Source: Phycisphaerales bacterium UBA5793 (GTDB lineage Bacteria; Planctomycetota; Phycisphaerae; Phycisphaerales; UBA5793). Taken from it: a DNA stretch of 64,000 bases. A program made the translations under genes and the position numbers. The DNA lies in the NCBI GenBank assembly GCA_002418285.1, contig DIDT01000057.1, forward strand, positions 78,958-142,957. The letters run 5' to 3'. Positions 1,189-63,132 of the stretch are shown here, piece by piece; within the stretch, counting starts at the first letter, position 1; every line of letters begins with the position of its first letter. The notes under the pieces were generated by a model, which was not told the DNA's origin, made no database searches, and worked only from the letters and a program-made list of their open reading frames with translations.

Positions 1189-1242
1189 ACTCGTTACCTC
1201 CTTCCGCGCAATTCGCTTCGATGCCTCGCGCCGCTCAGCCCT

Positions 1243-7394: not shown

Positions 7395-8975
7395 TCACTC
7401 CGTAATCCGCGCCGTTCGGAACGGCGTCTTGACGGAGTCGGCTCCACCGGGACCGCGCCGGATGACGGCCTGTGTCGTAATGGAACGCAGTGGTGCATTG
7501 ACAGGAATCAGCATTCGAACCGCGGCACGCCCCTCCTGGTCGGCGACTGCGGCGCCGAATTGGGAGAATGGCTCGACCAGATTCAGCGTTATGCCGCCGA
7601 TGAGGCGGTAGCCGCGCGAAAACCCGGCTCGCCCAATGCCGAATAGGAAGTTCACGCGGTCGCCCGGCTGGGCTCCGGTGACAGAAAACTCGGCTTCCTG
7701 GCCGCGCATGAGTGCCGTGTGCTCATATCCTGGTCCGACGAGCACTGTCGTGTTGTTCAGGATCGCGAGTCCCTCAGTCCCACTGCGAACCAAATCCAAT
7801 TGTCCATCTCCGCTGAGGTCGGCACTCAGCACGCCGCCGCCCCCGACCGCGCTCGGCAGGGGGTCGAGTTGTGTGAACTCCCAGCGACCCTCGTTTGCGA
7901 AGACATCGATAGAGTCATCGACTGCACTCTCATCTGCAAATGCAATATCCAATCGACCGTTCGTGTTGAAGTCACCCATCACGGCTCGGCAGTGACCGCC
8001 TTCGCCGATGAGGTACGTCGCCGCGATCCGAAGCGTCTCGCCGCGACGATTCTCCAACAGGCACATCACGTTCGGACTCCGCTGCTGTTCCTGCCAACCC
8101 GTCACAAGCAAGTCCAGATCTCCATCGCCGTCGAGATCGCCGGTGACCAAATCCGAAGCGAGAATGTCGTCGTCCTGCCATGGCAGGCGCGTCACCGCCG
8201 AAAGCTGGAACTGTGTATCTCCAACGTTATTCAGCAGCACCGCAAGCGTATCCCGGACGCGGTAGTACCCCTGCATGTCGATGAAAAGATCCTGAACAAT
8301 CAGAGCAATATCGAGGTCTTCGTCGCCATCCACGTCTTCTACTTGGATCCGCCTGATGCTCCCGACATGTGGAATCGAAACGAGAGACTGGTACTCGAAC
8401 GTTCGATTGCCTTGATTGACATAGGAGTTGATGCTCTGGGCGTGAGATGTCACAACCATATCAAGCAGGCCGTCTCCGGAGATGTCCACGAGCGCAAAGT
8501 CGCCAAGGTATCCGCCGCGGCGATCCAACTGGACAATCGTGCCGTTGATTCCATCCCCGCTGTTGTACCAGGTTGTCACGACGGACCCGAGTTGCTGTTC
8601 ATAATCCAGCCAACTCAGGTCAACATGACCGTCGTGATCCAGATCAGCAGCGACGATCCGTTTTGGAGGTCCGGTGTATGGCGGCTCACCGTAGTACGGG
8701 AATTCTGCCGATTGCGTCAGCCCTCCCACTCCGTCGTTGAGGCACAGTTTGATCACGCCGTCGGCAAGCACCGCCACGTCCATCTGTCCATCACCATCGA
8801 AATCTTCCCAGTCCATCGGGAATGACAGGCCATCCGAAGGAGAAACGGCTGGCTCGCCGAATGCAATCGGCTGCGCCAGCGCGCTCGATCCGCCGAGATA
8901 CGCGATTGCGAGCAGCGTCAATAAGGCGATGCGTTGGAGTCGCTCGCTTCGACCGGACAGGTTCAAGTGCATCAT
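7395..8975 (-). CDS. secreted FG-GAP/VCBS repeat beta-propeller protein (paralogue 1)
   Basis: 526 aa with a signal peptide. Repeated Ca-loop motifs include 'DFDGDGQMDVAV', 'DLDHDGHVDL', 'DISGDGLLDMVV', 'GDLDGDGDLDLLV' and 'DLSGDGQLDLV'. The conserved C-terminal tail is 'QAVIRRGPGGADSVKTPFRTARITE'. Confidence 0.75.
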   Translation of the reverse strand: MMHLNLSGRSERLQRIALLTLLAIAYLGGSSALAQPIAFGEPAVSPSDGLSFPMDWEDFDGDGQMDVAVLADGVIKLCLNDGVGGLTQSAEFPYYGEPPYTGPPKRIVAADLDHDGHVDLSWLDYEQQLGSVVTTWYNSGDGINGTIVQLDRRGGYLGDFALVDISGDGLLDMVVTSHAQSINSYVNQGNRTFEYQSLVSIPHVGSIRRIQVEDVDGDEDLDIALIVQDLFIDMQGYYRVRDTLAVLLNNVGDTQFQLSAVTRLPWQDDDILASDLVTGDLDGDGDLDLLVTGWQEQQRSPNVMCLLENRRGETLRIAATYLIGEGGHCRAVMGDFNTNGRLDIAFADESAVDDSIDVFANEGRWEFTQLDPLPSAVGGGGVLSADLSGDGQLDLVRSGTEGLAILNNTTVLVGPGYEHTALMRGQEAEFSVTGAQPGDRVNFLFGIGRAGFSRGYRLIGGITLNLVEPFSQFGAAVADQEGRAAVRMLIPVNAPLRSITTQAVIRRGPGGADSVKTPFRTARITE

Positions 8976-9026
8976 CTTGTGTCTCCTCTCGGTTCGACAT
9001 TCGCGGATCCAGAGTCTCAGCGATCA

Positions 9027-10616
9027 TCAGGGCACAATCCGCGTGGTGCGAAACGGCGTCTTGACGGAATCTGTGCCGCCGGGGCCGCGGCGGATCACAG
9101 CCTGAAGTACGACTTCCGTCAGCGGCGCACGGGGCGGCACGGTGAAGTGGAATTGCGCCACACCGTTTGAGTCGGCTCGTGCGGTGCCCAGGGTCTGAAT
9201 CGGGTCGTTCAGGTCGAGCGTGATGCCTCCGAGTTGGCGGATGCCGAGGCTGTTGCCGGCGCCGCGAACCGTGTAGAGAAATGCCACCGTCTCGCCTGGT
9301 TGAGCGTTGCTGACTTCCATCGTCGCCGGTTGGCCGCGCCGGAAGCTTGAGTGTTCGAGCACCGGACCCGAGTAGGGAGTGATGTTGTGATAGAGCGAAA
9401 GCCCGTTGTACCGACCGATCGCGAGGTCGATCTGCCCATCACCATCTACATCCGCCAATGTTGGCGGTGACGATGTGTAATCGAGATCGAGTTCTTCCAC
9501 GACAAACTCAAAGCCGCCCTGGGAGTGGAGCAAGTGGTCGGGGTTTGAACTCGCGCGAACGACCATGTCGAGCAAGCCGTCGGTATCGAGATCCGCCATT
9601 ATGAACGATCCTGTGTGCCTAGCGAGACCGAACTGCGGACCCGATCGAATGCCGAACTCGACACCACGGTTGAGATTCTCGACAAACAAGATCTCAACGG
9701 GCTTGGATTCGTGGTAATTGACTGCGAGGATGGCGCCGTCAAGATCACCGTCACCATCCAGATCCCCCAACTGCACTTGAACCGGAAAACTGTCTCGATC
9801 GCTCCCCAATCCATAAGGCAGATCAATGATCGTGCCTGGCGATAACTCGCCAATACCGTTGTTGACAAACACCTGCATGGTGCTGCCGTAGATCTTCCAA
9901 CCTTCATAATCATCGAGTTCGCAATCTGCGGCGAGTACCACAGCATCTACGTCGCCATCGTCATCAAAGTCGCCAAGCACTACATCCGTCGCATGATTGA
10001 CGGAGAGTGGAATGGTTTGAGTTAATTCGAATTGACCATTGCCGGAGTTGGCGAACACTCGCACTTGGGACAAATTGCGAGGATAGTCGTACCCATCTAC
10101 CGCGATGAAGTCGGGCAGACCGTCGCCTGTCAAATCACCAGTGTCCAGCCCGCCGATAGCGCGATCACCCAGTTCAAGAGACTCAATGCGCGCGACCCAG
10201 CCGTCCCCCCTGTTGATCAACACCTGAAAGTCCCTCAGTTCACCCTCCGGTTGCTGAGGATTTGCATAATTCCTCATCCAGCACACGTCGGCGTGGCCAT
10301 CGCCGTCAAAGTCCCCTGGCTCTATTGCCCAAAGGCGATCGCCTGGTCGGTAGAGTGAACCCATGAGTTCAAGCTCACCATTTGCCTGATTCCGAAGAAA
10401 ATACAGTACTTCGATGCTGGAACAAGCGACGAGATCCCGCCAGCCGTCACCATCCAGATCAACGGCGGCTACTCCGCTGATAAACGTCGGCGTGGGCTGA
10501 AACAGCGTTTCTTCGAATTGGACTTGTGCGGGAGCGGATTGCCCGCCCACTCCTCCAACACCAATCGCAAAGATGGCGGGGCTCGCAACGGTCATCGATC
10601 TTGACCTAATACTCAT
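9027..10616 (-). CDS. secreted FG-GAP/VCBS repeat beta-propeller protein (paralogue 2)
   Basis: 529 aa. Motifs include 'DLDGDGWRDLV', 'DFDGDGHADV', 'GDFDDDGDVDAVV', 'GDLDGDGDLDGAI' and 'DVDGDGQIDLA'. The tail is 'QAVIRRGPGGTDSVKTPFRTTRIVP'. Confidence 0.75.
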   Translation of the reverse strand: MSIRSRSMTVASPAIFAIGVGGVGGQSAPAQVQFEETLFQPTPTFISGVAAVDLDGDGWRDLVACSSIEVLYFLRNQANGELELMGSLYRPGDRLWAIEPGDFDGDGHADVCWMRNYANPQQPEGELRDFQVLINRGDGWVARIESLELGDRAIGGLDTGDLTGDGLPDFIAVDGYDYPRNLSQVRVFANSGNGQFELTQTIPLSVNHATDVVLGDFDDDGDVDAVVLAADCELDDYEGWKIYGSTMQVFVNNGIGELSPGTIIDLPYGLGSDRDSFPVQVQLGDLDGDGDLDGAILAVNYHESKPVEILFVENLNRGVEFGIRSGPQFGLARHTGSFIMADLDTDGLLDMVVRASSNPDHLLHSQGGFEFVVEELDLDYTSSPPTLADVDGDGQIDLAIGRYNGLSLYHNITPYSGPVLEHSSFRRGQPATMEVSNAQPGETVAFLYTVRGAGNSLGIRQLGGITLDLNDPIQTLGTARADSNGVAQFHFTVPPRAPLTEVVLQAVIRRGPGGTDSVKTPFRTTRIVP

Positions 10617-10650
10617 GGTACAGGCTCCAAAGCACGGTTGCGGGTGGTGG

Positions 10651-12228
10651 CTATGGTTCGATCACGAACGACAGAAACGGCGTCTTGACCGACTCGGCGC
10701 CGCGCGCTCCCCGCCGGATGACCGCCTGAACGGTCACTGGATCCGATGGCGCATTCTGCGGAATCTGCACATGCAGCACGGCGCGACCGCTCGGACCTGC
10801 AACTGCGCTGCCCGCCACGACGACAGGATCCTGCAGATCGAGCGTCAGTCCCCCCAGCACCGGCACCCCAAGTGAGGGCCCGGCGACCTCAGTGCTGAAG
10901 AGGAAGTATGCACGCTCGCCGGGCTCGGCGTTGCCAACCGCGAATGCGGCCTCTCGTCCGCGCCTCACTTGCGTATGCGCCAGTGTGGGGCCGCGGAGTG
11001 TGGTTGTGTTCGGCAGCACGACTAATCCACCATCACTGCCAGATCCGCCCTGGATCAAGTCGATCTGCCCATCGCCACTTAAATCTGCCGTTCTAGCGGA
11101 GGAACCCCGAATGCCACTGTGGAACGGTGTCATTCCCACGAATGCAAAGTCGCCTTCATTGCGCACGACGTATACCCCAAACGTGGTGGCATTGACAAAC
11201 ACGAGATCGAGTCGCCCATCGGTGTTAACGTCCGCTGGCATCACGTCCCCGGCGCTTTCGAAAACGGCTCGGTATCGCGCGCCGATCGACAGCGAGCGGT
11301 TTCCATCATTGCGGGCGATGAGCAGTTCGTTCGGCGAGACGAAGTTCAGAGAAGACGCATGAATAACAACATCCAGGTCTCCGTCACCGTCAAAGTCCCC
11401 CAAGGCCATCGCCCTTGCAATCATGCTCTCCGGTGTCCACGGCAGTTCAAGTTGCCACGCAAGTCGGAGCGACGCCCCATCCTCGTTGTTGAGCAGAATC
11501 AACTGCGAGTCTTCCACATCGTATTCGATGTACTGCATGGTTGCGGTGACATCGACGTCACCATCGCCGTCGACATCGCCCACGGACATTGCTCGCACCT
11601 TGTGGAATGTGCGTCCGTAGGTGTACAGTTCCTGTTCCTCGAATAGCCGATTCCCGCGATTGAAGACCGCGCTGATCGTCCGGTAGTCGCTGAAGTAGAG
11701 AATGTCGGTTCGACCGTCGAGGTTGAAGTCCGAGAGCGCGATGTCCGATCGAAGCGCCCCGGGCAGTGGAATTCGAATCGTCTCACCGGATCGGCCATCC
11801 CCATCGTTGTACCAGATCGTGAGAGCCCGCGTGCGATCCAGCAGGTACTCGCCCCAAACTGCATCCGCATCGCCATCCTGGTCCATGTCCGCGACGGCGA
11901 TCGATGTGACCGAGTTCTCAAAGGGGATCGCCAGAGTTCGCGTCAATGATCCAGAGCCATCATTGAGGTAGAGATCAACAGACTCCGTGCCAATCACGAT
12001 GAGATCCTGGCTCGCGTCACGATCAAAGTCAGCCGTCGCGATGCCGCTGATGCCGCCGCTCTCGGGATAGGTGTCTGGCTCACCGAAGTGAATCAGTTGC
12101 GCGAAGGCGCTGGCGCCGAAGGCAGTGGACCCAAGTCCGAAGGTCGCCAGACGACCTGCCGTCACACTACGACGTGTGTCCAAACCATGCTTCGGATGAC
12201 GCATGCTTCGCCTCCTCCTCTGCTGCAT
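10651..12228 (-). CDS. secreted FG-GAP/VCBS repeat beta-propeller protein (paralogue 3)
   Basis: 525 aa. Motifs include 'DMDQDGDADAV', 'GDVDGDGDVDVT', 'GDFDGDGDLDVVI' and 'DLSGDGQIDLI'. The tail is 'QAVIRRGARGAESVKTPFLSFVIEP'. Confidence 0.75.
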   Translation of the reverse strand: MQQRRRRSMRHPKHGLDTRRSVTAGRLATFGLGSTAFGASAFAQLIHFGEPDTYPESGGISGIATADFDRDASQDLIVIGTESVDLYLNDGSGSLTRTLAIPFENSVTSIAVADMDQDGDADAVWGEYLLDRTRALTIWYNDGDGRSGETIRIPLPGALRSDIALSDFNLDGRTDILYFSDYRTISAVFNRGNRLFEEQELYTYGRTFHKVRAMSVGDVDGDGDVDVTATMQYIEYDVEDSQLILLNNEDGASLRLAWQLELPWTPESMIARAMALGDFDGDGDLDVVIHASSLNFVSPNELLIARNDGNRSLSIGARYRAVFESAGDVMPADVNTDGRLDLVFVNATTFGVYVVRNEGDFAFVGMTPFHSGIRGSSARTADLSGDGQIDLIQGGSGSDGGLVVLPNTTTLRGPTLAHTQVRRGREAAFAVGNAEPGERAYFLFSTEVAGPSLGVPVLGGLTLDLQDPVVVAGSAVAGPSGRAVLHVQIPQNAPSDPVTVQAVIRRGARGAESVKTPFLSFVIEP

Positions 12229-41199: not shown

Positions 41200-41397
41200 T
41201 GGTACGGCCGGGAGGGCGGGCCCGGTTCCGTCCCACTCCTATAACATCGGCCGGACGCCTCGTTGCGTTCCCAAATGTCGAGATTCCCGGGCAAGAACAC
41301 CCACAAAAGACGCTGCCAACGCTACGGCCCGCCCGAATTTCGCGGGTAGCGCACGGAAAGCGCCATCCATGTCTGATTACCCACCACGTGGGATCGC

Positions 41398-45923: not shown

Positions 45924-46870
45924 CCGCGCCCCCTGCGACCTTGCGCCATCCTTCGGGCCAGGAAGTGACTGAGCACCGGGCCGATCGAGTCGTGTGTGTC
46001 AATGCGCTGGTAGTCAAAATGAAATCCGCGCGCCAACTTTTCCAGCGACTTGCAGTGTTCGGAGAGAATCTCGAGATAGGCCTGGCGCAGTGAGCGCGGA
46101 TCAAGGTTCAGTTTGCCCTCGAGTTCCATTCCCTCAAAAGGGGCCGGCGTGCGGAAGTCAAAGCGCATCTCCTGCCGGTCGAGCACCTGGAGCAGGATGA
46201 GATCGTGCCCGCGATGCCGCACGCGCGCCATGGCGCTGCGGATCTGGTCCAGGTCGTCGAAGAAGTCGCTAATGATCACAAAGAGCACGCGGTTGGTCAC
46301 CTTGCCCAGCGCCTGATCGACGCACCGGCCGATGCTCGTCTGCTCTTCCACCGGATGGGTGTTGAGCGCCGAGACGATCTGGCGCCAGTGTCCCTGCGCG
46401 CTGCTGCGATTGACCAGTGAGCGCACGCCGTCGGCGAACACGACCATCCCCACGCGATCCTGCTGTTGCAATGCCAGGAACGATACCGCGGCGCCGAGCG
46501 CCGTGGCATGATCGAACTTGCGCCAGATGCGCTTGCTGCCGTCTTCAATCGTCGCCTCATACGTGCCAAAGCGCATCGAGCCGGATGAATCGACGAGCAA
46601 CACAACGTCGAGATTTGTTTCCTGCTCATACTGCTTGAGGTACAGCTTGTCGCTGCGGCCGAAGACCTTCCAGTCGAGGTGGCGAATGTCGTCGCCCTGC
46701 ACATACTGCCGATGCTGCGCAAACTCGACGGAAAAGCCATAATAAGGACTTTCGTGCATGCCGCTGCGAATACCCTCGACAACCATGCGGGCGCGCAACT
46801 CGAATGCGCCCATCCGCGCAAGCGTGGCGGGAGAGAGGTAGTCGTCGGTTTGGAGAGAGGTGTCGGGCAT
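45920..46870 (-). CDS. DUF58 protein (MoxR-associated, VWA-like)
   Basis: 'FELRARMVVEGIRSGMHESPYYGFSVEFAQHRQYVQGDDIRHLDWKVFGRSDKLYLKQYEQETNLDVVLLVDSSGSM'. Start chosen at 'MPDTSL' (cat 46868-46870). The ORF stays open to 46945. Confidence 0.8.
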   Translation of the reverse strand: MPDTSLQTDDYLSPATLARMGAFELRARMVVEGIRSGMHESPYYGFSVEFAQHRQYVQGDDIRHLDWKVFGRSDKLYLKQYEQETNLDVVLLVDSSGSMRFGTYEATIEDGSKRIWRKFDHATALGAAVSFLALQQQDRVGMVVFADGVRSLVNRSSAQGHWRQIVSALNTHPVEEQTSIGRCVDQALGKVTNRVLFVIISDFFDDLDQIRSAMARVRHRGHDLILLQVLDRQEMRFDFRTPAPFEGMELEGKLNLDPRSLRQAYLEILSEHCKSLEKLARGFHFDYQRIDTHDSIGPVLSHFLARRMAQGRRGRG

Positions 46871-46956
46871 GCGGCTTAGCTGGGTGCGGAAATGCGTTGG
46901 CCGGTCCTGTTGGCCGCAGTACGATGACAAGAAGCGGACAGACACGGAAGGCGCCC

Positions 46957-47241
46957 ATGGGACAGTTGTTCGAGAGGATACGAGAGGCGGTGGACGATGA
47001 GCGATATGTCATCGGCGTCCACGCGGCTCAGCGTCTCCGGGAACGCCGAATCCCGCAATGGCAGGCAGTCGCCGGACTGGCCGATGGAGTTCTGATCACC
47101 GAACGCCCCCGGTCGAAGCCCAATGCCTCCGTCGAGGTGAAGCAGCCGCTCCCTGACGGCACCACTGCGAAGGCGATCTGGGCCTGGCTCCCCTATCATC
47201 GGGTGGCGAAACTGGTAACGGTCCATTTCATGGACAGGTGA
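46957..47241 (+). CDS. DUF4258-like putative toxin
   Basis: 94 aa from ATG 46957. 'YVIGVHAAQRLRERRIPQWQAVAGLADGVLITERP...AKLVTVHFMD' follows the DUF4258 pattern (H-A-x-x-R-x-x-x-R-x-I ... hydrophobic strand ending the protein). It is on the opposite strand to the surrounding cluster. Confidence 0.55.
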   Translation: MGQLFERIREAVDDERYVIGVHAAQRLRERRIPQWQAVAGLADGVLITERPRSKPNASVEVKQPLPDGTTAKAIWAWLPYHRVAKLVTVHFMDR

Positions 47242-47478
47242 ATGATGAACCTCGACGGCGAACACATCAAACAGACAATGTGGTTCGAGAGCGGCGCCTT
47301 CGTGGTGCGCGTTGTGGTGGACGCGGTCGTTCCACGTGACGACACGTCGGAGCCCTGCTTCGAACCGGATGCCGTCAAGTTCCTCAGCGAAGTCCAGGAA
47401 CACGCCAACGCCGGCGACATCGAATGGCTCAAGACCGTCGGCGACGTGTACGTACTCACGCATTCGCGTTCGGCTTGA
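47242..47478 (+). CDS. hypothetical partner of the DUF4258 gene (putative antitoxin)
   Basis: 78 aa. Its ATG immediately follows the upstream TGA ('tgaatgatg'). Third-position GC counted by hand is about 79%, against about 65% for the antisense frame. Confidence 0.4.
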   Translation: MMNLDGEHIKQTMWFESGAFVVRVVVDAVVPRDDTSEPCFEPDAVKFLSEVQEHANAGDIEWLKTVGDVYVLTHSRSA

Positions 47479-47501
47479 CGGCTCGCGTCGGTTCATCTCA
47501 C

Positions 47502-47948
47502 TCATCCACCCTTCCTGTCTTCGCGCCCCCAGCTGCGTTGTGCGCCGTTTGCAGATTCGTCCGGCGCGGCTAGCTCATGCCTGCGCATCTTCCAACGGAG
47601 GAAATCATCAACAAGCGGCGTGCACACGATGATCACGGGCCAAGCGATCGCACGACCCACATCATCCACATCCCAATTGTCCGCGATCGTCGTCAGGCCA
47701 CCATGCGCGATGGTCCAAATGGCCAACCCGACTCCAGCACACGCGAAGAAAAAGGCGCATGTCACGCTCGGTGGACGACAGACGCCTGATTCCCTACAGG
47801 AACACTGTGAGAAAATACCCGTCGCGCCCAACACGATGAAAACGGCTTCGTAACCGATCGCCCACATCATGGAATTGGACAGTTCTGCGGCCCACAGCCA
47901 CACGGCCCCGCCGGCAAGAAAGATCATGTACGCGATTCGAACAAGCAC
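47502..47948 (-). CDS. four-helix membrane protein, family unknown
   Basis: 148 aa, beginning 13 nt downstream of the MoxR stop. Hydrophobic helices include 'IAYMIFLAGGAVWLWAA', 'AIGYEAVFIVLGATGIF', 'CAFFFACAGVGLAIWTI' and 'AIAWPVIIVCTPL'. Confidence 0.45.
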   Translation of the reverse strand: MLVRIAYMIFLAGGAVWLWAAELSNSMMWAIGYEAVFIVLGATGIFSQCSCRESGVCRPPSVTCAFFFACAGVGLAIWTIAHGGLTTIADNWDVDDVGRAIAWPVIIVCTPLVDDFLRWKMRRHELAAPDESANGAQRSWGREDRKGG

Positions 47949-47960
47949 GGCAATCCTCGG

Positions 47961-49049
<1,089 letters not shown>

Positions 49050-49533
49050 ACTCCATCCATCCTCTTTGTCAGGCGCAACTGGGTTGATTGAGCGCATCGT
49101 GGGCCATGCGACAGCACGCGGCCGGCAAATACGCCTCGTCCGCTAAGACGAAGATCGGCCAGTACCCCATACCGCATCGAGTATAGTCGCGGGGGTATGA
49201 AGCCGTTGCACTCCAGGAGTGCTTCGGCGCATCGCGCCCAGATCGGCTTTGGCTTATCGACACCTGAATAAGCACGCTGCAAAGCGACAAACCGGTCAAC
49301 TTAAACACCATATCCACTGTTGTTCGCGCTGGGGCGGCCAAAAACGATCGCGCCGCCCCCATCTCCCTGATTGTCCGTTGTTTGCAGGAGCCAGATCAGA
49401 AGCCCTACGTCGTTTTGGCCGACCATCACTCCCAAGGGACTCGAGTCGTCGCAATGGCAACCGGGTCCGTCGCTTCGGTGGACGTGAATTGGTTCGACGC
49501 TTCAGGGCGTCAGAAGGGTGATGGAGAACTTCA

Positions 49534-50181
49534 ATGAAACAGCGTGATCTCATCCAGTTGGCGTGCCTCGTTCTTGTCGTCAGCACGACGGCAACCAGCG
49601 CGCAGATCATCGGCAGCGCCCACGACTTCTCTTCCGAAGGCTGGGCCCAGTCGCAGACCTGTCTGCCATGTCACACGCTCCACAACGCCAATGCGGTTGA
49701 GATCAACGGCTACTCGGCCGGCCGCCTGTGGAACCATGCTCTGCCCTCCGCCGGCCAGGTCTACACCACCTACGACGGCAACTTCCCGCGCGATGAGGCC
49801 CTCGACTCCTACAGCATTCTCTGCATGGGCTGCCACGACGGCACCGTCGCCCTCGACGCTTTCGGCGATGGCATCGGCAGCCAGTTCATGACCGGGGATG
49901 CACTCGTCGGCACCGACCTCACCAAGCAGCACCCCGTCGGCGCCAGCGCCGTGTGGCCCAATCCCGAACCCAGTTACCTCAATGCGCGGGCCACGTGGGA
50001 GAATCAGACGTTCGGCGGCTCACGCATGGGAAAACTGCGCCTGATGGTCGTCGATGGCGCGGAGGAGTCGGTTCTCAGTTGCGCCACCTGCCACGAACCA
50101 CACAATCGCGGCGGCTACGACGACCTGCTGCGCATCGACAACACGTCCAGCCAGATGTGCCTGGCGTGCCACAACAAGTAG
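49534..50181 (+). CDS. tetra-haem c-type cytochrome (paired-CXXCH type)
   Basis: 215 aa with a signal peptide. Four CXXCH motifs: 'CLPCH', 'CMGCH', 'CATCH', 'CLACH'. The last pair has the doubled-CXXCH spacing 'CATCHEPHN...LLRIDNTSSQMCLACHNK'. Confidence 0.8.
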   Translation: MKQRDLIQLACLVLVVSTTATSAQIIGSAHDFSSEGWAQSQTCLPCHTLHNANAVEINGYSAGRLWNHALPSAGQVYTTYDGNFPRDEALDSYSILCMGCHDGTVALDAFGDGIGSQFMTGDALVGTDLTKQHPVGASAVWPNPEPSYLNARATWENQTFGGSRMGKLRLMVVDGAEESVLSCATCHEPHNRGGYDDLLRIDNTSSQMCLACHNK

Positions 50182-50194
50182 AAGTCGGCGAGCG

Positions 50195-51781
50195 CTATTC
50201 CACCACCGCCTCGATCACATTGCTTGAATTCTCGCGCTGGATGGCCTGGAACCAGACCGTCCGCCCGCGTGATTGCGGCGGCATGGTGATGTTCCACGAG
50301 ACGTTGCCAGCCGCGTCCGCCCGAAGCGGCCCGACACCCAGTCGCGGCTGGGCCAGGTTGACTGGCACGTCGAGCAAGGCGATGTTCGTGTACCCCGGCC
50401 CATCAAGGCTGTAGACGATCCACGCCTGTTCATTGGGTCGCGCGTCGGTCACGTTGAACCGTGCCCGCTTCCCGCCGATGAGCGGCGAAGTTTCCAGAAC
50501 CATCGGATGCAACCGCTGGCAGTAGATGTCCTGCTCACCGTTGAACGTCGCAGGATGCACCACGCTCACCGAGCCGTTGTCAGACTGGCACTGGAAGTAG
50601 TCGCCGATCTTCGTTTGCTGTGGATAACCTATTGACGGATCGAACGAATCGCTCACCGCACGATTGGGAGACCACGTCAAACCCCCGTCGTATGAGTGGG
50701 AGTAGTACAACCGCGAATCAAAGTGGTTCGGGTCGGCCCGTGTATCAAACCACAATGCATCCAGCCGCCCGGCCGGGGAAATCGACATGGCCGCCATCCA
50801 TTGGTAGTCGGCACCAGGTTGATCATCGTTCACGCGCAGCGGTTCGCTGAACGTGACCCCATTGTCTGTGCTTCGCGCAAACATGACATCACAGACATCA
50901 TCCGTTCGCACGGCCGATGAGAGTACATAGACATTGCCACGCGTCGCCGATTCACTTCGATCAATCGCCAGATACACCTGGCTTGATACACCCGCTGGAT
51001 TCACAGGCAACTGCTTCGCCACTTGACCGCAGGGAATCAGCGTCGATGGATTCCACGTCCAGCGTCCTGGCCGAAACGCGTCGTCAGATCGGCGCACGAC
51101 CAGATTCGGTTCGCTCCACGATGCGACGAATACCTCGCCATTCAGGCCCACATCGACGAACGCCATCTCATGACCGGAGGAAGGATTGGTATCGCGCTCC
51201 CAAGTCTGTCCACCATCCAGACTTCGAGAAAATACCACGCCGACTGTATAGGACGCGTAGTAGTGGTTCTCACTCACTCCGCTCCGATCGACGGTGTACC
51301 GCCCCTTGTCCGCCGTCGAGCCATCTCGCACCACGTGTGGAGTCTGCCAGTCTACCCCGCCGGTATCACTCTGGTAGACCACACCAACGAATGTGGGTTC
51401 AAAAACAAGGCTGCTGTAGAAAAACGACCCACTCGAATCTACCGCCAACAACGGATCGCTTTGCTGCGCATCAGGGAAGCCTGGTGGTGGTGGCAGTGTG
51501 CCGCGGTTGATCCACGTCTGCCCGCCGTCAAACGTCACGGCGTAGCCTGCGTAGCGCGCGTCAGATTCGACGCTTGGGAACTGCCGCCAGCCAACGACCA
51601 TGTTGAGTGGATTTTGGGGACTGACTGCGAGCGTGGGTTCATTGGCGGCATCGCCGGGGATGTTCAGACCGAGCGCATCAGTGTTGATTTGCACACCTTG
51701 CTGGGCTGATGCATGGAGTCCGATACCGCCGAGGCCCAACACCGCTACAGTGACAACAACACGACGCGCGCACCCTCGCAT
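50195..51781 (-). CDS. secreted BNR/Asp-box sialidase-like beta-propeller protein (paralogue 1)
   Basis: 528 aa with a signal peptide. N-terminal block 'GVQINTDALGLNIPGDAANEPTLAVSP'. Asp-box-like 'DGGQTW', 'DGGLTW' and 'DNGVTF'. A conserved C-terminal module is present. Confidence 0.7.
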   Translation of the reverse strand: MRGCARRVVVTVAVLGLGGIGLHASAQQGVQINTDALGLNIPGDAANEPTLAVSPQNPLNMVVGWRQFPSVESDARYAGYAVTFDGGQTWINRGTLPPPPGFPDAQQSDPLLAVDSSGSFFYSSLVFEPTFVGVVYQSDTGGVDWQTPHVVRDGSTADKGRYTVDRSGVSENHYYASYTVGVVFSRSLDGGQTWERDTNPSSGHEMAFVDVGLNGEVFVASWSEPNLVVRRSDDAFRPGRWTWNPSTLIPCGQVAKQLPVNPAGVSSQVYLAIDRSESATRGNVYVLSSAVRTDDVCDVMFARSTDNGVTFSEPLRVNDDQPGADYQWMAAMSISPAGRLDALWFDTRADPNHFDSRLYYSHSYDGGLTWSPNRAVSDSFDPSIGYPQQTKIGDYFQCQSDNGSVSVVHPATFNGEQDIYCQRLHPMVLETSPLIGGKRARFNVTDARPNEQAWIVYSLDGPGYTNIALLDVPVNLAQPRLGVGPLRADAAGNVSWNITMPPQSRGRTVWFQAIQRENSSNVIEAVVE

Positions 51782-51807
51782 GCCCGTCCTCCCTCAGGTT
51801 CAGATGA

Positions 51808-53409
51808 TCACTGAATCACTGCCTCAATCACGTTGCTCGCGTTCTCCTGCTGGATCGCCTGGAACCAGACGGTTCGCCCTTGCGATTGTGGTGGCATTGT
51901 CACGGTCCACATCACGTCCCCAGACGAGTTCGCCAGGCGCGGCCCCACTCCAAGCTGTGGCTGCGCGAGATTCACTGGCACGTCGAGTGCGCCAACGTTG
52001 GTGTAGCCCCGACCGGTCGTGCTGTAAACGATCCACGTTCGCTCGCGTGGCCGCCCTTCGCTTACTTCGAATTGCGCCTGCTGACCGGCATGCAGCGGCG
52101 ACGTCTCCAACACCATCGGATGCAAGCGAGTGAAAAACAGGTCCTGTTCGCCATTGAACGTCGCCGGGTGAATGACGCTGACCGAGCCATTGTCAGATTG
52201 CGATTGGAAGTAGTCGCCGATCTTGTTCTGCTGCGGGTAACCCAGCGACGGATCAAATGCATCACCCACCGCTCGGTTCGCCGACCATGTCAGACCACCA
52301 TCCCACGAGTAGGAGTAGTACACGCGCGACATGAAGTGATTCGGATCATCGCGTGTGTCGAACCACGTCGCATCGAGTCGGCCGCTTGGCGCGATCGACA
52401 GGCTCGCCATCCACTGGTAGTCCTGTCCCACTGGATCGTCATTTACGCGAATCGGCGCGCTGAACGTTTGCCCGCCATCCGTGCTCCTGGCAAACATCAC
52501 GTCGCACACGTCATCATTGGGAACAGAAGAAGAAAACACATACACATTGCCGCGATTCGGACCATCGCTCGAGTCCACCATCACCCACACCTGGCCGGAT
52601 CCTCCGCCCGGATTGATGCGCAGGCCCGAAGGCATACGTCCAAAGGGCAGGCGGACTTCAGGCCCCCACGTCGGCGTCTGATTGGGATCGCTTGCGTTCT
52701 GCGAAACCCGAAACGCAACGCGGCCGGCGTTGTAATCCCACCACGCGAGATACAACTCGCCGTTCAATCCAGTTTCCATGTACGAACGGATTCCGGATCC
52801 AAGCGATTGCTGCGCTTGCCACGTGATCCCCTCGTCGATGCTGCGCTTGACATAGATCGTCGAGTTGCCCCAGCTTGCGTAATGGTGCCGGCTCGCGCCG
52901 CTTCGATCGATCGTGTACCAGTTCTTGTCCGCAAAGCCTGTGAAGAGATAAAGCGGCTCGTTCCATGAATACCCGCCATCCGGGGTGCCGTAGATCAGGA
53001 TGCCTAACTGTCCGTCGGCAAAGAGAAGACTGTTGTAGAAGAAGTGGCCATCAACATCAACCGCCAACACCGGATCCGACAGCTGTCCGTTGGGTGAGCC
53101 ACCTGGCCGCGGAAGTATGCCACCGTTGAACCATGTCAAACCGCCATCGGTTGTGACCGCGTATCCTGCGTAGCGCGCGCTGGAGTTAGTCGTCGGAAAC
53201 TCTCGCCACCCGACAACCATGTGCTGCGGGTCGAGCGGATCAATTGAGAAGCTCGGCTCATTGGCTGCGTCGCCAGCGATGTTCAGTCCCTGTGCATCCG
53301 TATTGATCTGCACGCCCTGCTGACCGAGCACGGTCGCGGCACCGATGACCGAACCCAGGACCGACACAACAGCGATGGCCACGCGGCCCCGAAGTTCACT
53401 CGTCGGCAT
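51808..53409 (-). CDS. secreted BNR/Asp-box sialidase-like beta-propeller protein (paralogue 2)
   Basis: 533 aa with 'GVQINTDAQGLNIAGDAANEPSFSIDP', 'DGGLTW' and 'DGGQTF'. Same C-terminal module. Confidence 0.7.
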   Translation of the reverse strand: MPTSELRGRVAIAVVSVLGSVIGAATVLGQQGVQINTDAQGLNIAGDAANEPSFSIDPLDPQHMVVGWREFPTTNSSARYAGYAVTTDGGLTWFNGGILPRPGGSPNGQLSDPVLAVDVDGHFFYNSLLFADGQLGILIYGTPDGGYSWNEPLYLFTGFADKNWYTIDRSGASRHHYASWGNSTIYVKRSIDEGITWQAQQSLGSGIRSYMETGLNGELYLAWWDYNAGRVAFRVSQNASDPNQTPTWGPEVRLPFGRMPSGLRINPGGGSGQVWVMVDSSDGPNRGNVYVFSSSVPNDDVCDVMFARSTDGGQTFSAPIRVNDDPVGQDYQWMASLSIAPSGRLDATWFDTRDDPNHFMSRVYYSYSWDGGLTWSANRAVGDAFDPSLGYPQQNKIGDYFQSQSDNGSVSVIHPATFNGEQDLFFTRLHPMVLETSPLHAGQQAQFEVSEGRPRERTWIVYSTTGRGYTNVGALDVPVNLAQPQLGVGPRLANSSGDVMWTVTMPPQSQGRTVWFQAIQQENASNVIEAVIQ

Positions 53410-53436
53410 CGCATCTCTCCCGTGATTTGCGCCGTG

Positions 53437-55092
53437 TTACTCGATCGTCGCCTCCGCCACGTTGCTCGCGCTCTCACGCTGCAACGCCTGGAACCAGAGT
53501 GTTCTGCCCGATCCCTGCCGCGGCACGGGCAGGTTCCATGCTGCTCCGCCATCCGCATCGGTTGTCTTCATCGCGCCGACCTGGAAGGGATGATCCAGGT
53601 TCAACGTGACATTCAGTTGCGGAATGTATGTGCTCCCCAGCCCCTGGAATGTTGCCGCGAGCCAGATCGGTTCACTGGGACGCGCACCCGCCACACTGAC
53701 CGATCCGCGCTGCCCGCCAACCAGCGCGCTCACATTCACCTGGAACGGTTCGACGCGCATAAACCACAGGTCCTGGCCGCCGTTGTACGTCGCCGGGTAG
53801 ATCACGTTCGCACCGGTCGCGTCCGACACACTCTCCATATAGTCGCCGATCTTGTCCTGCTGCGGCCAGCCAAGCGTCGTATCGAACGCCTCGGAGACCT
53901 GCTGGCTGGACGCCCATGTTGTCCCACCATCTGTCGAGTATGAATAAAAGAGCTCCGACCACGGTACCTGGTGACCGCTGCTGTTGCGTGTGTCAAACCA
54001 GAAGACATCGATGCGCCCGTTGGGCGCCACGCTCATCGAGGGCATCCACTGGATCGCACCCGGCCCATCGTCGTTGACGCGAATGCCCGTCTCCCACGTG
54101 AAACCACCATCAGCGCTTCGGGCAAAGTACAGATCTGCCGTGTCGCGCCGCTTGTCAGGCCAGAGCGCATAGACCCAACCATGTCGAGGGCCTCCCGACG
54201 AATCAACCCCCAGAAACATCTGGTGATACCCCGTCGGATTGATGTTCAGGAATCCCGGGTCGTTGGAGGCATCGATACGAATGTCAAGGCCGTTGCGGCC
54301 GCCGCCGCCGAATGCGTCAAATGTGGTTGGCACATTCGCGTCTTTGGCGTTGATCGACTTGGTGATAAAGATCGCATTCTGGCCGTAGTTCTTCCACGCG
54401 GCATACACCTCGCCCTCGGGGCCCACCACCATATGCAGCATCCATTGCGTGCCCCCGGCATCAGCAATGCGCACGCTTGGCGTCCATGTGCGGCCGCCGT
54501 CCGTCGACTCGACATAGCAGTAGCCGCCGAGCGTAAAGTGATTCCATCCGCCATACAAGTGCCCGTCTCCCATCCCGCCCGTGTTGTCGATGGCCAGCCA
54601 CGGCTTGTCGCCGTTGGTTGGATCCTCGATGGGATCAGGAACCGACCAGGTCTCCCCACCATCCGTCGACTGGTAGATCCATTGTGCGTAGTTGGGTCGA
54701 AAAACCTCGCTCCAGTAGTAGAACACGCCTTGCGCGTTCACCTTTACCATTGGATCCGACTGTTCCGGATTCTGATACCCCGGCGGTCCCTGCTGCACGC
54801 CGCCGTTGGTCCACGTCAGTCCGCCGTCCGACGAGTAGGCGTACCCCGCGTATCGCGAGTCGGAGTTGATCGTCGGGAACTGCCGCCAGCCTACAACGAT
54901 CTGATTCGGATCAACCGGGCTCACCGCGAACGTTGGTTCGTTCGCGGCATCACCAACGATGTCCTGGCCCTGCGCATTCGTGTTAATCTGTACGCCGCGC
55001 TGCGCCAGCGCCGCTGGTGCAAGACCGGTAAGGCAAACGACACCAGCCGACGCACAATGCCGCCGCCACGTCCCACTCATTTTCTGAACCAT
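53437..55092 (-). CDS. secreted BNR/Asp-box sialidase-like beta-propeller protein (paralogue 3, most divergent)
   Basis: 551 aa with 'GVQINTNAQGQDIVGDAANEPTFAVSP', 'DGGLTW', 'DGGETW', 'DGGRTW', 'DGGFTW' and 'DGGTTW'. Same C-terminal module. Confidence 0.7.
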   Translation of the reverse strand: MVQKMSGTWRRHCASAGVVCLTGLAPAALAQRGVQINTNAQGQDIVGDAANEPTFAVSPVDPNQIVVGWRQFPTINSDSRYAGYAYSSDGGLTWTNGGVQQGPPGYQNPEQSDPMVKVNAQGVFYYWSEVFRPNYAQWIYQSTDGGETWSVPDPIEDPTNGDKPWLAIDNTGGMGDGHLYGGWNHFTLGGYCYVESTDGGRTWTPSVRIADAGGTQWMLHMVVGPEGEVYAAWKNYGQNAIFITKSINAKDANVPTTFDAFGGGGRNGLDIRIDASNDPGFLNINPTGYHQMFLGVDSSGGPRHGWVYALWPDKRRDTADLYFARSADGGFTWETGIRVNDDGPGAIQWMPSMSVAPNGRIDVFWFDTRNSSGHQVPWSELFYSYSTDGGTTWASSQQVSEAFDTTLGWPQQDKIGDYMESVSDATGANVIYPATYNGGQDLWFMRVEPFQVNVSALVGGQRGSVSVAGARPSEPIWLAATFQGLGSTYIPQLNVTLNLDHPFQVGAMKTTDADGGAAWNLPVPRQGSGRTLWFQALQRESASNVAEATIE

Positions 55093-55120
55093 GGGTAACC
55101 CTTCTCCCCTTCACCCAAAA

Positions 55121-56707
55121 CTACTGCACATCGGCCTCAAACACGTTGCTCGCGTTCTGCCGCTGAATTGCCTGGAAGTAGATGTGCTGCCCGCGTGACT
55201 GCGGCGGCATCGTCACCGTCCACGACACGTTGCCCGCACCATCGGCAAAACGAGGACCCACACCCAGCCGCGGCTGGGCCAGGTTCACCGGAACGTCCAG
55301 TGGACCCACCTTTGTGTACCCGTTTCCAGCAAGGCTGTACACGATCCACGCGCGTTCGTTGGGTCGGCACTCGCTCACATCAAATTGACCGGGCTGGCCC
55401 GCCATCAGCACAGACACCTCCAGCAACATCGGATGCAGCCGCCGAAAGTAGAGGTCTTGTTCACCGTTGTATGTCGCGCTATGCACGAAACTCATCGAGC
55501 CGTTGTCAGATCGGGCGTGGAAGTAATCGCCCATCTTGCGCTGCTGCGGCCAGCCAACCGTTGGATCAAACTGATCCCCAACTGGCCGGCTTGGTGACCA
55601 CGTGGCGCCACCATCGTAGGAGTGTGAGTAATAGAGTCGTGACATCAGGTGGCCGGGGTCGTCGCGTGTATCGAACCATGCCGCGTCAAGTCGCCCGCCG
55701 GGCGCCATCGACATTGCCGCCATCCACTGGTAGTCCTGCCCGGGAGCATCATCGTTGACGCGAATCGGCGTGCTCCACGTCTGACCGCCGTCCATACTGC
55801 GCGAGAACATGACGTCCGCGGGATCATTACCTGTGCGCGATGAACTGAGCACATACACCCAGCCTCGCCGTGGCCCATCATTATGGTCCGTGGCAATCCA
55901 CACCTGGCTGGCCCCGCCATCGGGATTCATGGGCGGCTGCCACACCATGTCGCCAAATGGAATCGCAACCTCGGGGGTGAACGTCGGCGTCGCGTTCGGA
56001 TCCTGCGCGTTGTCTGAACGCCGGATCTTCACTCCGCCACCCTCCCACCAGCCGATGTACACCTCGGCATCCGGCCCGACATTCACGTGGGCGAAGATGC
56101 TGGCGCCAACACGCCATCGCGCCCACGTCTGTCCACCATCTGTGCTGCGCGCGAACTCGCCGGGCAACTGCCAGATGCCATAGTGGTTTCCGGTGATGTA
56201 ATCGATCTCATACCAGTTCTTGTCCGCCGACTGGTCACGACTGAACACCGGCTCATCCCAGGAGAATCCGCCAGTGTCGCTGCGATACGTCGCCACACCC
56301 AGATGCGATCCGCGGAAGATCAGGCTGTTGTAAAAGAACACGCCGTTCCAATCCACCGCCAGCACCGGGTCCGACTGCTGAGCATCCGGCGCATCGGGCG
56401 GAGGCGGAAGGGTTCCCTCGTTGAACCACGACAATCCCCCGTCGGTACTTACAGCCACCCCGGCATACCGCGCATCAGAATTGATCGTCGGAAACTGCCG
56501 CCAGCCCGCGACCATGTGCAGCGGATTCGTCGGATCGATAGCAAAGCTCGGCTCATTGGCCGCGTCGCCGGGAATGTTCTGCCCGTTGGCGTCATGGTTG
56601 ATCTGCACGCCGCGCTGGGCCAGCGCGGTCGATCCAAGCCCGCCCAGAAACACCGCCGCGCCCAATCCCGCTACCAGATTTCGCCGCGCTGTATGACTCC
56701 ACTGCAT
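55121..56707 (-). CDS. secreted BNR/Asp-box sialidase-like beta-propeller protein (paralogue 4)
   Basis: Start set at 'MQWSHTARRNLVAGLGAAVFLGG' (cat 56705-56707). Contains 'GVQINHDANGQNIPGDAANEPSFAIDP', 'DGGLSW', 'DGGQTW' and 'DGGATW'. Same C-terminal module. Confidence 0.7.
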   Translation of the reverse strand: MQWSHTARRNLVAGLGAAVFLGGLGSTALAQRGVQINHDANGQNIPGDAANEPSFAIDPTNPLHMVAGWRQFPTINSDARYAGVAVSTDGGLSWFNEGTLPPPPDAPDAQQSDPVLAVDWNGVFFYNSLIFRGSHLGVATYRSDTGGFSWDEPVFSRDQSADKNWYEIDYITGNHYGIWQLPGEFARSTDGGQTWARWRVGASIFAHVNVGPDAEVYIGWWEGGGVKIRRSDNAQDPNATPTFTPEVAIPFGDMVWQPPMNPDGGASQVWIATDHNDGPRRGWVYVLSSSRTGNDPADVMFSRSMDGGQTWSTPIRVNDDAPGQDYQWMAAMSMAPGGRLDAAWFDTRDDPGHLMSRLYYSHSYDGGATWSPSRPVGDQFDPTVGWPQQRKMGDYFHARSDNGSMSFVHSATYNGEQDLYFRRLHPMLLEVSVLMAGQPGQFDVSECRPNERAWIVYSLAGNGYTKVGPLDVPVNLAQPRLGVGPRFADGAGNVSWTVTMPPQSRGQHIYFQAIQRQNASNVFEADVQ

Positions 56708-62942: not shown

Positions 62943-63132
62943 TGGAAAACGCTTTCCTAAAACGGAAGCCCGCGGATTTGAAAACTCCACCACCGAACAA
63001 GCCAAACCACGAGACAGAGCCATCCTCTGGCCAGCTTCGGTCCAACCGGACAAAGGTAATTCTTCTTCGCGTGTTTGTCAACCCCTAATCCACCGAATCA
63101 TCATACTTCTGCGAGACACGTGAAAGTTTTTT

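What the first reader, a model, noticed from the sequence alone, without database searches (positions are those of the whole stretch)
50195..56707. Four tandem BNR/Asp-box propeller paralogues share a roughly 100-aa extreme C-terminal module with an unrelated FG-GAP family 40 kb away
Four co-directional genes are separated by only 26, 27 and 28 nt. Each encodes a signal peptide, the block 'GVQIN..(A/N).G.(N/D)I.GDAANEP', an Asp-box propeller and a terminal module.

The terminal module reads, for example, 'LETSPLIGGKRARFNVTDARPNEQAWIVYSLDGPGYTNIALLDVPVNLAQPRLGVGPLRADAAGNVSWNITMPPQSRGRTVWFQAIQRENSSNVIEAVVE'. The three FG-GAP proteins (7395-12228) end with 'RGQEAEFSVTGAQPGDRVNFLFGIGRAGFSRGYRLIGGITLNLVEPFSQFGAAVADQEGRAAVRMLIPVNAPLRSITTQAVIRRG...'.

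Both families show the same order of conserved positions: G-x4-F-x-V-x3-P-x-E/D, hydrophobic strand, G-x-G, L-x-(L/V)-x-L-x2-P, (A)-D-x2-G, alternating strand, (V/I)P, then hydrophobic-QA(I/V). One module on two different propeller folds, always at the very C-terminus of secreted proteins, is what a sorting, anchoring or secretion-recognition domain looks like. The T9SS CTD and PEP-CTERM are analogies only. I do not recognise it as a named domain.
Basis: partly seen in the sequence, partly recalled or inferred. Interest (0 to 1): 0.7.

Follow-up and report, generated by a model that had tools for sequence, protein, structure and literature searches.

The report
Unnamed C-terminal tag domain of planctomycete exported proteins
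Seven exported proteins of two unrelated propeller families in this Phycisphaerales genome end in the same roughly 100-residue beta-sandwich domain, which belongs to a large unnamed family that sits almost only at the very end of exported proteins and may be a shared targeting or anchoring tag.

Summary
Four tandem BNR/Asp-box propeller genes (50195-56707, minus strand, gaps of 26/27/28 nt) and three tandem FG-GAP genes (7395-12228, minus strand) all end in one homologous module of about 100 aa. Profile-profile comparison gives E 1.2e-11 with the window copies alone and about 1e-31 with broader subfamily profiles.

The module matches no Pfam-A or NCBIfam model and no PDB sequence. AlphaFold2 models it confidently (pLDDT 93.9) as a nine-strand Ig-like beta-sandwich. 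Foldseek finds only generic Ig-like matches.

An exhaustive profile search finds 2329 representative clusters. In 217 of 218 proteins examined the module ends within 15 residues of the C-terminus. It is fused to at least 47 Pfam families, including beta-helices, M14, S8 and trypsin-like peptidases, a lipase and various propellers. About 90% of carriers have an N-terminal hydrophobic leader. Named carriers are mostly Phycisphaerae/Planctomycetota MAGs.

Homologous BNR propellers elsewhere carry a T9SS C-terminal domain or a dockerin at the same junction. The module shows no profile similarity to those T9SS domains.

The best reading is a shared targeting or retention tag. This is inferred from anatomy and comparison only. 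No cleavage, partner or machinery was found.

The parts
50195..51781 (-). BNR1: signal peptide, GVQIN...GDAANEP block, sialidase-like six-bladed Asp-box propeller, C-terminal module (528 aa)
   Evidence: ORF. Pfam BNR/BNR_2. AF2 full-length model pLDDT 91.8, pTM 0.90. Foldseek best matches are bacterial sialidases, E 2e-12, TM about 0.4.
50198..50512 (-). C-terminal module of BNR1 (last 105 aa, type 1 tail ...WFQAIQRENSSNVIEAVVE*)
   Evidence: HMM hit E 3e-48. AF2 pLDDT 93.9, nine beta strands.
51808..53409 (-). BNR2 paralogue (533 aa), 26 nt upstream of BNR1
51811..52125 (-). C-terminal module of BNR2
53437..55092 (-). BNR3 paralogue (551 aa), the most divergent of the four; 27 nt gap
53440..53754 (-). 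C-terminal module of BNR3
55121..56707 (-). BNR4 paralogue (528 aa from the ATG at 56707); 28 nt gap
   Evidence: public gene call of 528 aa
55124..55438 (-). C-terminal module of BNR4
7395..8975 (-). FG1: signal peptide, FG-GAP/VCBS propeller, C-terminal module (526 aa)
7398..7733 (-). C-terminal module of FG1 (type 2 tail ...QAVIRRGPGGADSVKTPFRTARITE*)
9027..10616 (-). FG2 (529 aa). The public gene call P0122 starts at an internal Met and gives 445 aa.
9030..9365 (-). C-terminal module of FG2
10651..12228 (-). FG3 (525 aa)
10654..10989 (-). C-terminal module of FG3

Best explanation
The seven tails are copies of an undescribed, independently folding Ig-like beta-sandwich domain of about 100 aa. 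This domain is obligately the last domain of Sec-exported proteins in Phycisphaerales and related Planctomycetota.

The polypeptide nearly always stops right after the final strand. There are two tail subtypes. Type 1 ends W-x-Q-A-x-Q-(5)-S-N-V-V-...-[VI]-[QNE] and is carried by the BNR proteins. Type 2 ends Q-A-V-I-R-R-G-x-G-G-x-D-S-V-K-... and is carried by the FG-GAP proteins.

I propose it is a shared C-terminal address or anchor tag. After Sec export, the folded module would be recognised by a common partner. That partner could be an outer-membrane export or attachment machinery, or an envelope component. Many unrelated enzymes and propellers would thereby be delivered to, or held at, the cell surface. 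This would be the role that the T9SS C-terminal domain or a dockerin plays on homologous passengers in other lineages.

Shown: homology, fold class, strict terminal position, passenger diversity, leader peptides, positional equivalence with T9SS CTD and dockerin.

Inferred: recognition by a partner, surface targeting or retention.
For: - Homology of the two tails.
- Independent, confident fold: pLDDT 93.9, pTM 0.84, nine strands.
- Family size: 2329 representative clusters at E<=1e-3 and 663 at E<=1e-10.
- In 217 of 218 carriers the module ends within 15 aa of the C-terminus.
- The chain ends exactly 17 residues (type 1) or 25 residues (type 2) after the 99%-conserved Gln.
- Of the 150 best representatives, 101 have neither the BNR nor the FG-GAP_3 passenger.
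- 85 of those match 47 Pfam families: FG-GAP_2, Beta_helix, Chlam_PMP, NosD, Peptidase_M14, S8, reprolysin, GDSL lipase, PQQ_2, SBBP, CHRD and others.
- 163 of 181 full-length carriers have an N-terminal hydrophobic leader, by a crude hydropathy test.
- BNR homologues covering only about 75% of the query carry PF18962 (T9SS CTD), PF00404 (dockerin), PF13860 or cohesin instead. In P0088 and P0120 the T9SS CTD starts at the very junction where the module starts.
- FG-GAP homologues likewise carry PF18962 or dockerin.
- In all full-length independent genomic and metagenomic loci the module is followed by a stop codon. Module genes cluster with each other and include M14 and trypsin-like proteases.
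Against: - No experimental or proteomic data are available.
- No conserved neighbouring gene that could be a receptor, sortase or translocon was found in 12 loci.
- Most invariant positions are Gly, Pro or Leu, which fits a purely structural constraint.
- The module follows the propeller without a flexible linker. The two-domain model has pTM 0.90, so the module may be packed on its passenger rather than freely presented.
- Two divergent subtypes (about 25-30% identical) coexist in one genome.
- Across orthologues the module is less conserved than the propeller: 43% against 54%.
- Rare internal or tandem copies exist: P0357, P0243, P0259, P0314.
Confidence: 0.5

Rival explanations
1. The module is a substrate- or surface-binding module, like a CBM or an adhesion domain. 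It would tether exported enzymes and propellers to a polysaccharide or particle, and no dedicated machinery would be involved.
For: - Beta-sandwich of CBM-like size.
- Partners include hydrolases, peptidases, beta-helix proteins and lectin-like propellers.
- Conserved aromatic and polar positions W73, W87 and Q89 lie on strands.
- The best full-length structural match, the Micromonospora sialidase, also has Ig-like and CBM domains after its propeller.
Against: - CBMs and adhesion Ig domains occur at N-terminal, internal and tandem positions. This module is terminal in 217 of 218 proteins, and the chain stops right after the last strand.
- No Pfam CBM or Ig family matches.
- Foldseek gives no CBM among the significant hits; all have E > 1e-3.
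- Partners such as M14 carboxypeptidases, trypsin-like proteases and lipases share no common substrate.
Confidence: 0.25
2. The module is a structural C-terminal cap or folding-helper domain. It would be comparable to pre-peptidase C-terminal (PPC) or P-domains, stabilising or chaperoning the passenger and possibly being trimmed afterwards. It would carry no addressing information.
For: - The invariant residues are mostly Gly, Pro and Leu.
- The module abuts the propeller without a linker, and the two-domain model is confident, pTM 0.90.
- It co-occurs with peptidases.
Against: - A single helper domain is unlikely to fit 47 or more unrelated folds, from beta-helices to Rossmann-like lipases.
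- There is no match to PF04151 or other such families.
- The same passengers work elsewhere with a T9SS CTD or dockerin in its place.
Confidence: 0.15
3. The module is a highly divergent T9SS C-terminal domain, recognised by a T9SS-like system.
For: It shares position, size and overall beta-sandwich nature with the T9SS CTD, and it swaps with PF18962 on homologous propellers. One carrier contig is labelled Gemmatimonadota.
Against: - hhalign of the module profile against 16 T9SS type A CTDs taken from the BNR homologues: probability 0.1%.
- No PF18962 or TIGR04183 hit.
- The model has nine strands, whereas solved CTDs have a 3+4 seven-strand sandwich (abstract of PMC11285876, listed).
- No CTD structure appears among the 50 best Foldseek hits.
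- Carriers are mostly Planctomycetota, whereas T9SS is described as a Bacteroidota system (abstracts).
Confidence: 0.03

Closest known systems
T9SS type A C-terminal domain (PF18962 / TIGR04183, Por_Secre_tail)
   Same: It is an obligately C-terminal Ig-like beta-sandwich of about 80-100 aa. It sits on Sec-exported proteins with very diverse passengers: proteases, propellers, beta-helices. On homologues of these very BNR propellers it occupies exactly the same junction.
   Different: There is no sequence-profile similarity. The module has nine predicted strands rather than seven. It lacks the CTD's conserved motifs. Carriers are Planctomycetota, which are not known to have a T9SS. No evidence exists of cleavage or lipid or LPS attachment.
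Dockerin modules on planctomycete and other exported proteins (PF00404)
   Same: It is a C-terminal add-on that replaces the module on homologous BNR and FG-GAP passengers, including in Phycisphaerae (P0108). It is presumed to anchor the protein through a partner.
   Different: A dockerin is a small Ca-binding helical fold, whereas the module is all-beta.
Bacterial Ig-like domains (e.g. Big_3_5 PF16640) and FlgD Ig-like domain (PF13860)
   Same: They share the Ig-like sandwich and the A-D-x-x-G turn. There are weak sub-threshold hits: Big_3_5 at E 0.004-0.04 and FlgD at E 0.32.
   Different: All hits are far below the family cut-offs. Big domains are typically internal and tandem, whereas this module is single and terminal.
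Pre-peptidase C-terminal (PPC, PF04151) domains
   Same: It is a C-terminal beta-sandwich on secreted peptidases and other enzymes.
   Different: There is no profile match. PPC domains are often tandem and are followed or preceded by other domains.
Micromonospora viridifaciens sialidase, 68-kDa form (PDB 1EUT)
   Same: It has a six-bladed Asp-box propeller followed by an Ig-like domain. It is the best Foldseek match of the full-length BNR1 model.
   Different: TM is only about 0.4 and identity 13-14%. No F/YRIP motif is present in any of the four BNR proteins. In 1EUT the Ig domain is a linker to a CBM32, not the terminus.

Membership tests
T9SS type A CTD (PF18962/TIGR04183) | Match to the family profile | tested here: not met
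   No hit in Pfam or NCBIfam even at E<=1-10. hhalign against 16 CTDs gives probability 0.1%.
T9SS type A CTD (PF18962/TIGR04183) | Extreme C-terminal position on Sec-exported cargo of many kinds | tested here: met
T9SS type A CTD (PF18962/TIGR04183) | Seven-strand 3+4 Ig-like sandwich (abstract of PMC11285876, listed) | tested here: not met
   The AF2 model has nine strands. No CTD structure is among the 50 best Foldseek PDB hits.
T9SS type A CTD (PF18962/TIGR04183) | Host encodes the T9SS machinery (SprA, PorV, PorU and others), and the CTD is removed by PorU | not testable with these tools
   Whole genomes could not be fetched. Named carriers are Phycisphaerae/Planctomycetota MAGs.
Exosortase/rhombosortase-type tags (PEP-CTERM, GlyGly-CTERM etc.) | Short motif followed by a C-terminal transmembrane helix and a basic tail | tested here: not met
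   The tails end in a polar beta strand (...NVIEAVVE...RTARITE) with no hydrophobic helix. No NCBIfam sorting-signal hit.
Dockerin (PF00404) | Paired Ca-binding helical repeats and a profile match | tested here: not met
   All-beta model. No Pfam hit in the module.
Bacterial Ig-like group 3 (Big_3_5, PF16640) | Profile score above the gathering cut-off (35.5 bits) | tested here: not met
   The best score is 14.9 bits, E 0.042, on FG2 only. One of seven isolated modules scores E 0.0039.
GH33 exo-alpha-sialidase (for the BNR passenger) | Six-bladed Asp-box propeller | tested here: met
   4-5 Asp-boxes per protein. Foldseek to sialidases at E 2e-12.
GH33 exo-alpha-sialidase (for the BNR passenger) | F/YRIP motif with the Arg triad, and the Tyr/Glu nucleophile pair | tested here: inconclusive
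   There is no [FY]R[IVL]P in any of the four proteins. PDB sequence hits reach only Asp-box level, E >= 7e-5. The catalytic residues were not mapped structurally.

The most novel reading that the evidence does not exclude
The module is the cargo signal of a not yet recognised outer-membrane export or cell-surface attachment pathway of Phycisphaerae (Planctomycetota). It would be the functional counterpart of the T9SS CTD, but with an unrelated sequence, a different strand count and, presumably, an unrelated machinery.
Probability: 0.25. Interest if true: 0.85.

Novelty: new variant of a known kind. Interest (0 to 1): 0.58.

Why it matters
How Planctomycetota move their very large exported proteomes across or onto the outer membrane is poorly understood. 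A widespread, strictly C-terminal domain shared by dozens of unrelated exported enzymes offers several practical uses.
- It is a ready-made handle for defining a surface or secreted proteome in silico.
- It can be used to search for the partner by phyletic profiling.
- It allows the pathway to be tested with reporter fusions.

Even if it proves to be only a binding or structural module, it deserves a family entry. At present about 100 residues of more than 2000 protein clusters are unannotated. The carriers seen here are labelled "sialidase", "VCBS repeat protein" or "M14 peptidase" with no mention of the module.

Tried and rejected
- The word-indexed homologue search with the 7-module alignment found only one fragment, P0001. 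This was a sensitivity limit, because the exhaustive search found 2329 clusters.
- PDB sequence search: only PixA at E 0.29 and FlgD at E 0.32, which is noise.
- Foldseek of the module against the PDB: nothing at E<=1e-3, only generic Ig-like sandwiches.
I used an artificial family consensus as a probe instead. It returned 9 genome loci and 6 metagenome loci. This is too few, and biased towards exact 8-mers, so it does not measure taxonomic range or copies per genome.
- The listing of cluster members on 10 diverse carriers gave only one organism name.
- All-against-all comparison of ORFs in 12 loci found no conserved neighbour other than further module-bearing genes.
- Three literature searches found no description of this domain.
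- Divergent T9SS CTD hypothesis: rejected.
- Concerted evolution of the module within the genome: only weak support. BNR1, 2 and 4 modules are 68-70% identical against 58-60% for their propellers, but across the family the module is less conserved, 43% against 54%.
- P0247 (4598 aa, 21 partial stretches) is a CarboxypepD_reg/Big_13 repeat protein that matches only the D-x-x-G hairpin. It is not a true carrier.
Full report
**1. What is in the window**

All seven genes lie on the minus strand.

| Gene | Coordinates | Length |
|---|---|---|
| BNR1 | 50195-51781 | 528 aa |
| BNR2 | 51808-53409 | 533 aa |
| BNR3 | 53437-55092 | 551 aa |
| BNR4 | 55121-56707 | 528 aa |
| FG1 | 7395-8975 | 526 aa |
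| FG2 | 9027-10616 | 529 aa |
| FG3 | 10651-12228 | 525 aa |

- The four BNR genes are separated by exactly 26, 27 and 28 nt. The three FG-GAP genes are separated by 51 and 34 nt.
- Each BNR protein starts with a Sec-type leader ending in A-x-A, followed directly by GVQIN..x.G.xI.GDAANEP. Each has 4-5 Asp-boxes.
- Pfam assigns BNR/BNR_2 to the four and FG-GAP_3/FG-GAP to the three. Neither Pfam nor NCBIfam gives a match near its cut-off for the last ~105 aa; the only hit there is Big_3_5 on FG2, E 0.042, 14.9 bits against a cut-off of 35.5.
- The window is an ordinary chromosomal stretch, 61% G+C, with dnaA, purA, hemN and a dnaJ-like gene.
- It comes from a 166-kb contig of JGI metagenome 3300029304.
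- The closest named relatives of both families are Phycisphaerales/Planctomycetota MAG proteins.

**2. Is the shared tail real?**

Yes.
- Pairwise BLASTP of BNR tails against FG tails gives 23-32% identity over about 90 aa, 20-40 bits.
- hhalign of the four BNR tails against the three FG tails gives probability 97.4%, E 1.2e-11 over 92 columns.
- A profile built only from 66 BNR-type modules finds the three FG tails among the window's 738 six-frame ORFs at E 2e-15 to 2e-9.
- A profile built only from 51 FG-type modules finds the four BNR tails at E 6e-26 to 3e-21.
- A profile built only from 99 modules on other passengers finds all seven. The next-best ORFs have E > 0.1.
- Broad subfamily profiles align with probability 99.9-100%, E 1e-31 to 5e-52.
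- The window contains exactly these seven copies.

**3. What the module is**

*Fold.* AlphaFold2 with a 49-sequence alignment gives a confident model: pLDDT 93.9, pTM 0.84. It is all-beta with nine strands.

*Structural matches.* Foldseek against the PDB finds nothing at E <= 1e-3.
- The best matches are generic Ig-like sandwiches at TM 0.45-0.64: macromomycin and C-1027 apoproteins, FnIII, complement MG domains and transglutaminase barrels.
- No T9SS CTD is among the 50 best.
- The PDB sequence search gives only noise.
- Seven modules scanned alone against Pfam at E <= 10 give one weak Big_3_5 hit.

The module is therefore an unnamed Ig-like domain family, at least with respect to Pfam-A (2025 copy), NCBIfam r20 and the PDB.

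*Family size and position.*
- An exhaustive HMMER search of 1.84 billion representative proteins finds 2329 clusters at E <= 1e-3 and 663 at E <= 1e-10.
- Among the 218 carriers whose sequences I held, the last copy ends within 15 residues of the protein's C-terminus in 217.
- The exceptions are P0357 (VWA, module, then 178 aa) and three tandem or fused cases. One of these, P0259, looks like two carrier genes fused.
- The chain ends a fixed distance after the 99%-conserved Gln. The distance is 17 residues in type 1 tails (W.QA.Q.....SNVV...[VI][QNE]) and 25 residues in type 2 tails (QAVIRRG.GG.DSVK[TS]...). In both, the chain ends right after the last strand.
- The BNR proteins carry type 1 and the FG-GAP proteins carry type 2.

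*Passengers.*
- Of the 150 best representatives, 44 are FG-GAP_3-type, 5 are BNR-type and 101 have other passengers.
- 85 of the 101 match 47 Pfam families. These include FG-GAP_2, Beta_helix, Chlam_PMP, NosD, Peptidase_M14, S8, reprolysin, GDSL lipase, PQQ_2, SBBP and CHRD.
- By a crude hydropathy test, 163 of 181 full-length carriers have an N-terminal hydrophobic leader. Most of the rest look like truncated gene calls.

*Genomic loci.* In all full-length independent genomic and metagenomic loci the module is followed at once by a stop codon.
- Carriers often sit next to each other.
- The BNR array recurs as three paralogues in other planctomycete genomes.
- There it is flanked by an M14 carboxypeptidase (L013) or has a trypsin-like protease nearby (L015), each ending in the same module.

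*Taxonomy.* Named carriers are Phycisphaerae, Phycisphaerales or Planctomycetota MAGs. There is also one contig labelled Gemmatimonadota and three contigs of a MAG labelled Vicinamibacteraceae "PLA1". The taxonomic sample is small and was obtained with an exact-8-mer probe, so the true range is not established.

**4. Comparative clue to function**

The BNR propeller family is widespread.
- Hits covering at least 95% of BNR1, module included, are planctomycete.
- Hits covering about 75%, propeller only, carry something else after the propeller: PF18962 (T9SS type A CTD), PF13860, PF00404 (dockerin), cohesin or FG-GAP.
- In P0088 and P0120 the canonical T9SS CTD begins at exactly the residue where the module begins in BNR1, after ...GEQD[IV]Y..R[IL].P.
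- FG-GAP homologues likewise carry PF18962 or dockerin.

The module is thus the positional equivalent of known sorting and anchoring modules. It is not a divergent T9SS CTD. hhalign of the 216-sequence module profile against 16 CTDs taken from these homologues gives probability 0.1%. The strand count also differs from the 3+4 seven-strand CTD fold (abstract of PMC11285876, listed).

**5. The passengers**

The full-length BNR1 model is confident: pLDDT 91.8, pTM 0.90.
- It resembles bacterial sialidases only loosely. The best match is the Micromonospora sialidase at E 2e-12, TM about 0.4 and 13-14% identity. Propeller lectins reach TMt about 0.7.
- No F/YRIP motif is present.
- PDB sequence hits reach only Asp-box level.

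Calling these proteins "exo-alpha-sialidases", as some MAG annotations do, is not justified by what I tested. Their activity is unknown.

**6. Mechanism**

*Best supported (confidence about 0.5).* The module is a shared C-terminal address or anchor tag on Sec-exported proteins. A common partner would recognise it, and many unrelated passengers would be delivered to or retained at the cell surface.
- Shown: homology, autonomous fold, terminal restriction, passenger diversity, leaders, and positional swap with T9SS CTD and dockerin.
- Inferred: the existence of a partner and the localisation outcome.

*Evidence against.*
- No conserved neighbour was found in 12 loci.
- The invariant residues are mostly Gly, Pro and Leu.
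- There is no linker to the propeller.
- Two divergent subtypes occur in one genome.
- The module is less conserved than the propeller across orthologues, 43% against 54%.

*Rivals.*

| Rival | Confidence |
|---|---|
| CBM/adhesion-type binding module | 0.25 |
| Structural or folding-helper C-terminal cap | 0.15 |
| Divergent T9SS CTD | 0.03 |

**7. Novelty and verdict**

The module is a big family absent from every domain and structure library searched here, with an extreme C-terminal bias. As a kind of thing, a C-terminal beta-sandwich tag on exported proteins, it has known counterparts. As a family, and possibly as a pathway in Planctomycetota, it appears undescribed in the libraries and literature I could search. 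I rate it a new variant of a known kind, with interest 0.58. The most novel reading not excluded is a cargo signal for an unrecognised planctomycete export or attachment pathway, with probability about 0.25 and interest about 0.85 if true.

Noticed in passing
window 49534-50181 (+): A 215-aa protein with a signal peptide and four CxxCH haem-binding motifs (faint Cytochrome_C7 and Paired_CXXCH_1 hits). It is convergent with BNR1, and the two stop codons are 13 nt apart. The same neighbour is present in the Logan contig copy.
   Followed up: partly
window 37654-49097 (-): A Bat/MoxR-like operon: MoxR AAA (47961-49097), DUF58 (45920-46945) and BatA+VWA (43692-45923). These are followed by a 765-aa protein (41398-43695) and a 1181-aa protein (37654-41199) that have no Pfam match at all.
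   Followed up: partly
window 61458-63053 (-): dnaA (Bac_DnaA plus Bac_DnaA_C) lies 5 kb from the BNR array, so the locus is probably close to the chromosomal replication origin.
   Followed up: no
window 37-2361 (-) and beyond the window start: Tandem transglutaminase-core (PF01841) paralogues. The source contig has three in a row.
   Followed up: no
window 9027-10616 (-): The public gene call for FG2 (P0122, 445 aa) starts at an internal Met and loses the signal peptide and the first FG-GAP blade. The 529-aa ORF from 10616 is the better model. FG3 is also called shorter (517 aa, P0242).
   Followed up: partly
L013 6491-13250; L015 3163-11602: In other planctomycete genomes the BNR array has three paralogues with a BNR3-like gene first. 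It is accompanied by an M14 carboxypeptidase or a Trypsin_2 protease that end in the same module. The outer flanking genes (FKBP, LigT) differ from those in the window.
   Followed up: partly
window 50198-50512, 51811-52125, 55124-55438 (-): The modules of BNR1, BNR2 and BNR4 are more alike (68-70% identity) than their propellers (58-60%). This is the opposite of the family-wide trend of 43% against 54%. It may reflect local gene conversion or a shared constraint.
   Followed up: partly
window 6139-7317 (-): A DUF4915 protein (392 aa) lies immediately downstream of the FG-GAP trio. An MNT/HepT toxin-antitoxin pair lies a little further on, at about 4.6-5.3 kb.
   Followed up: no
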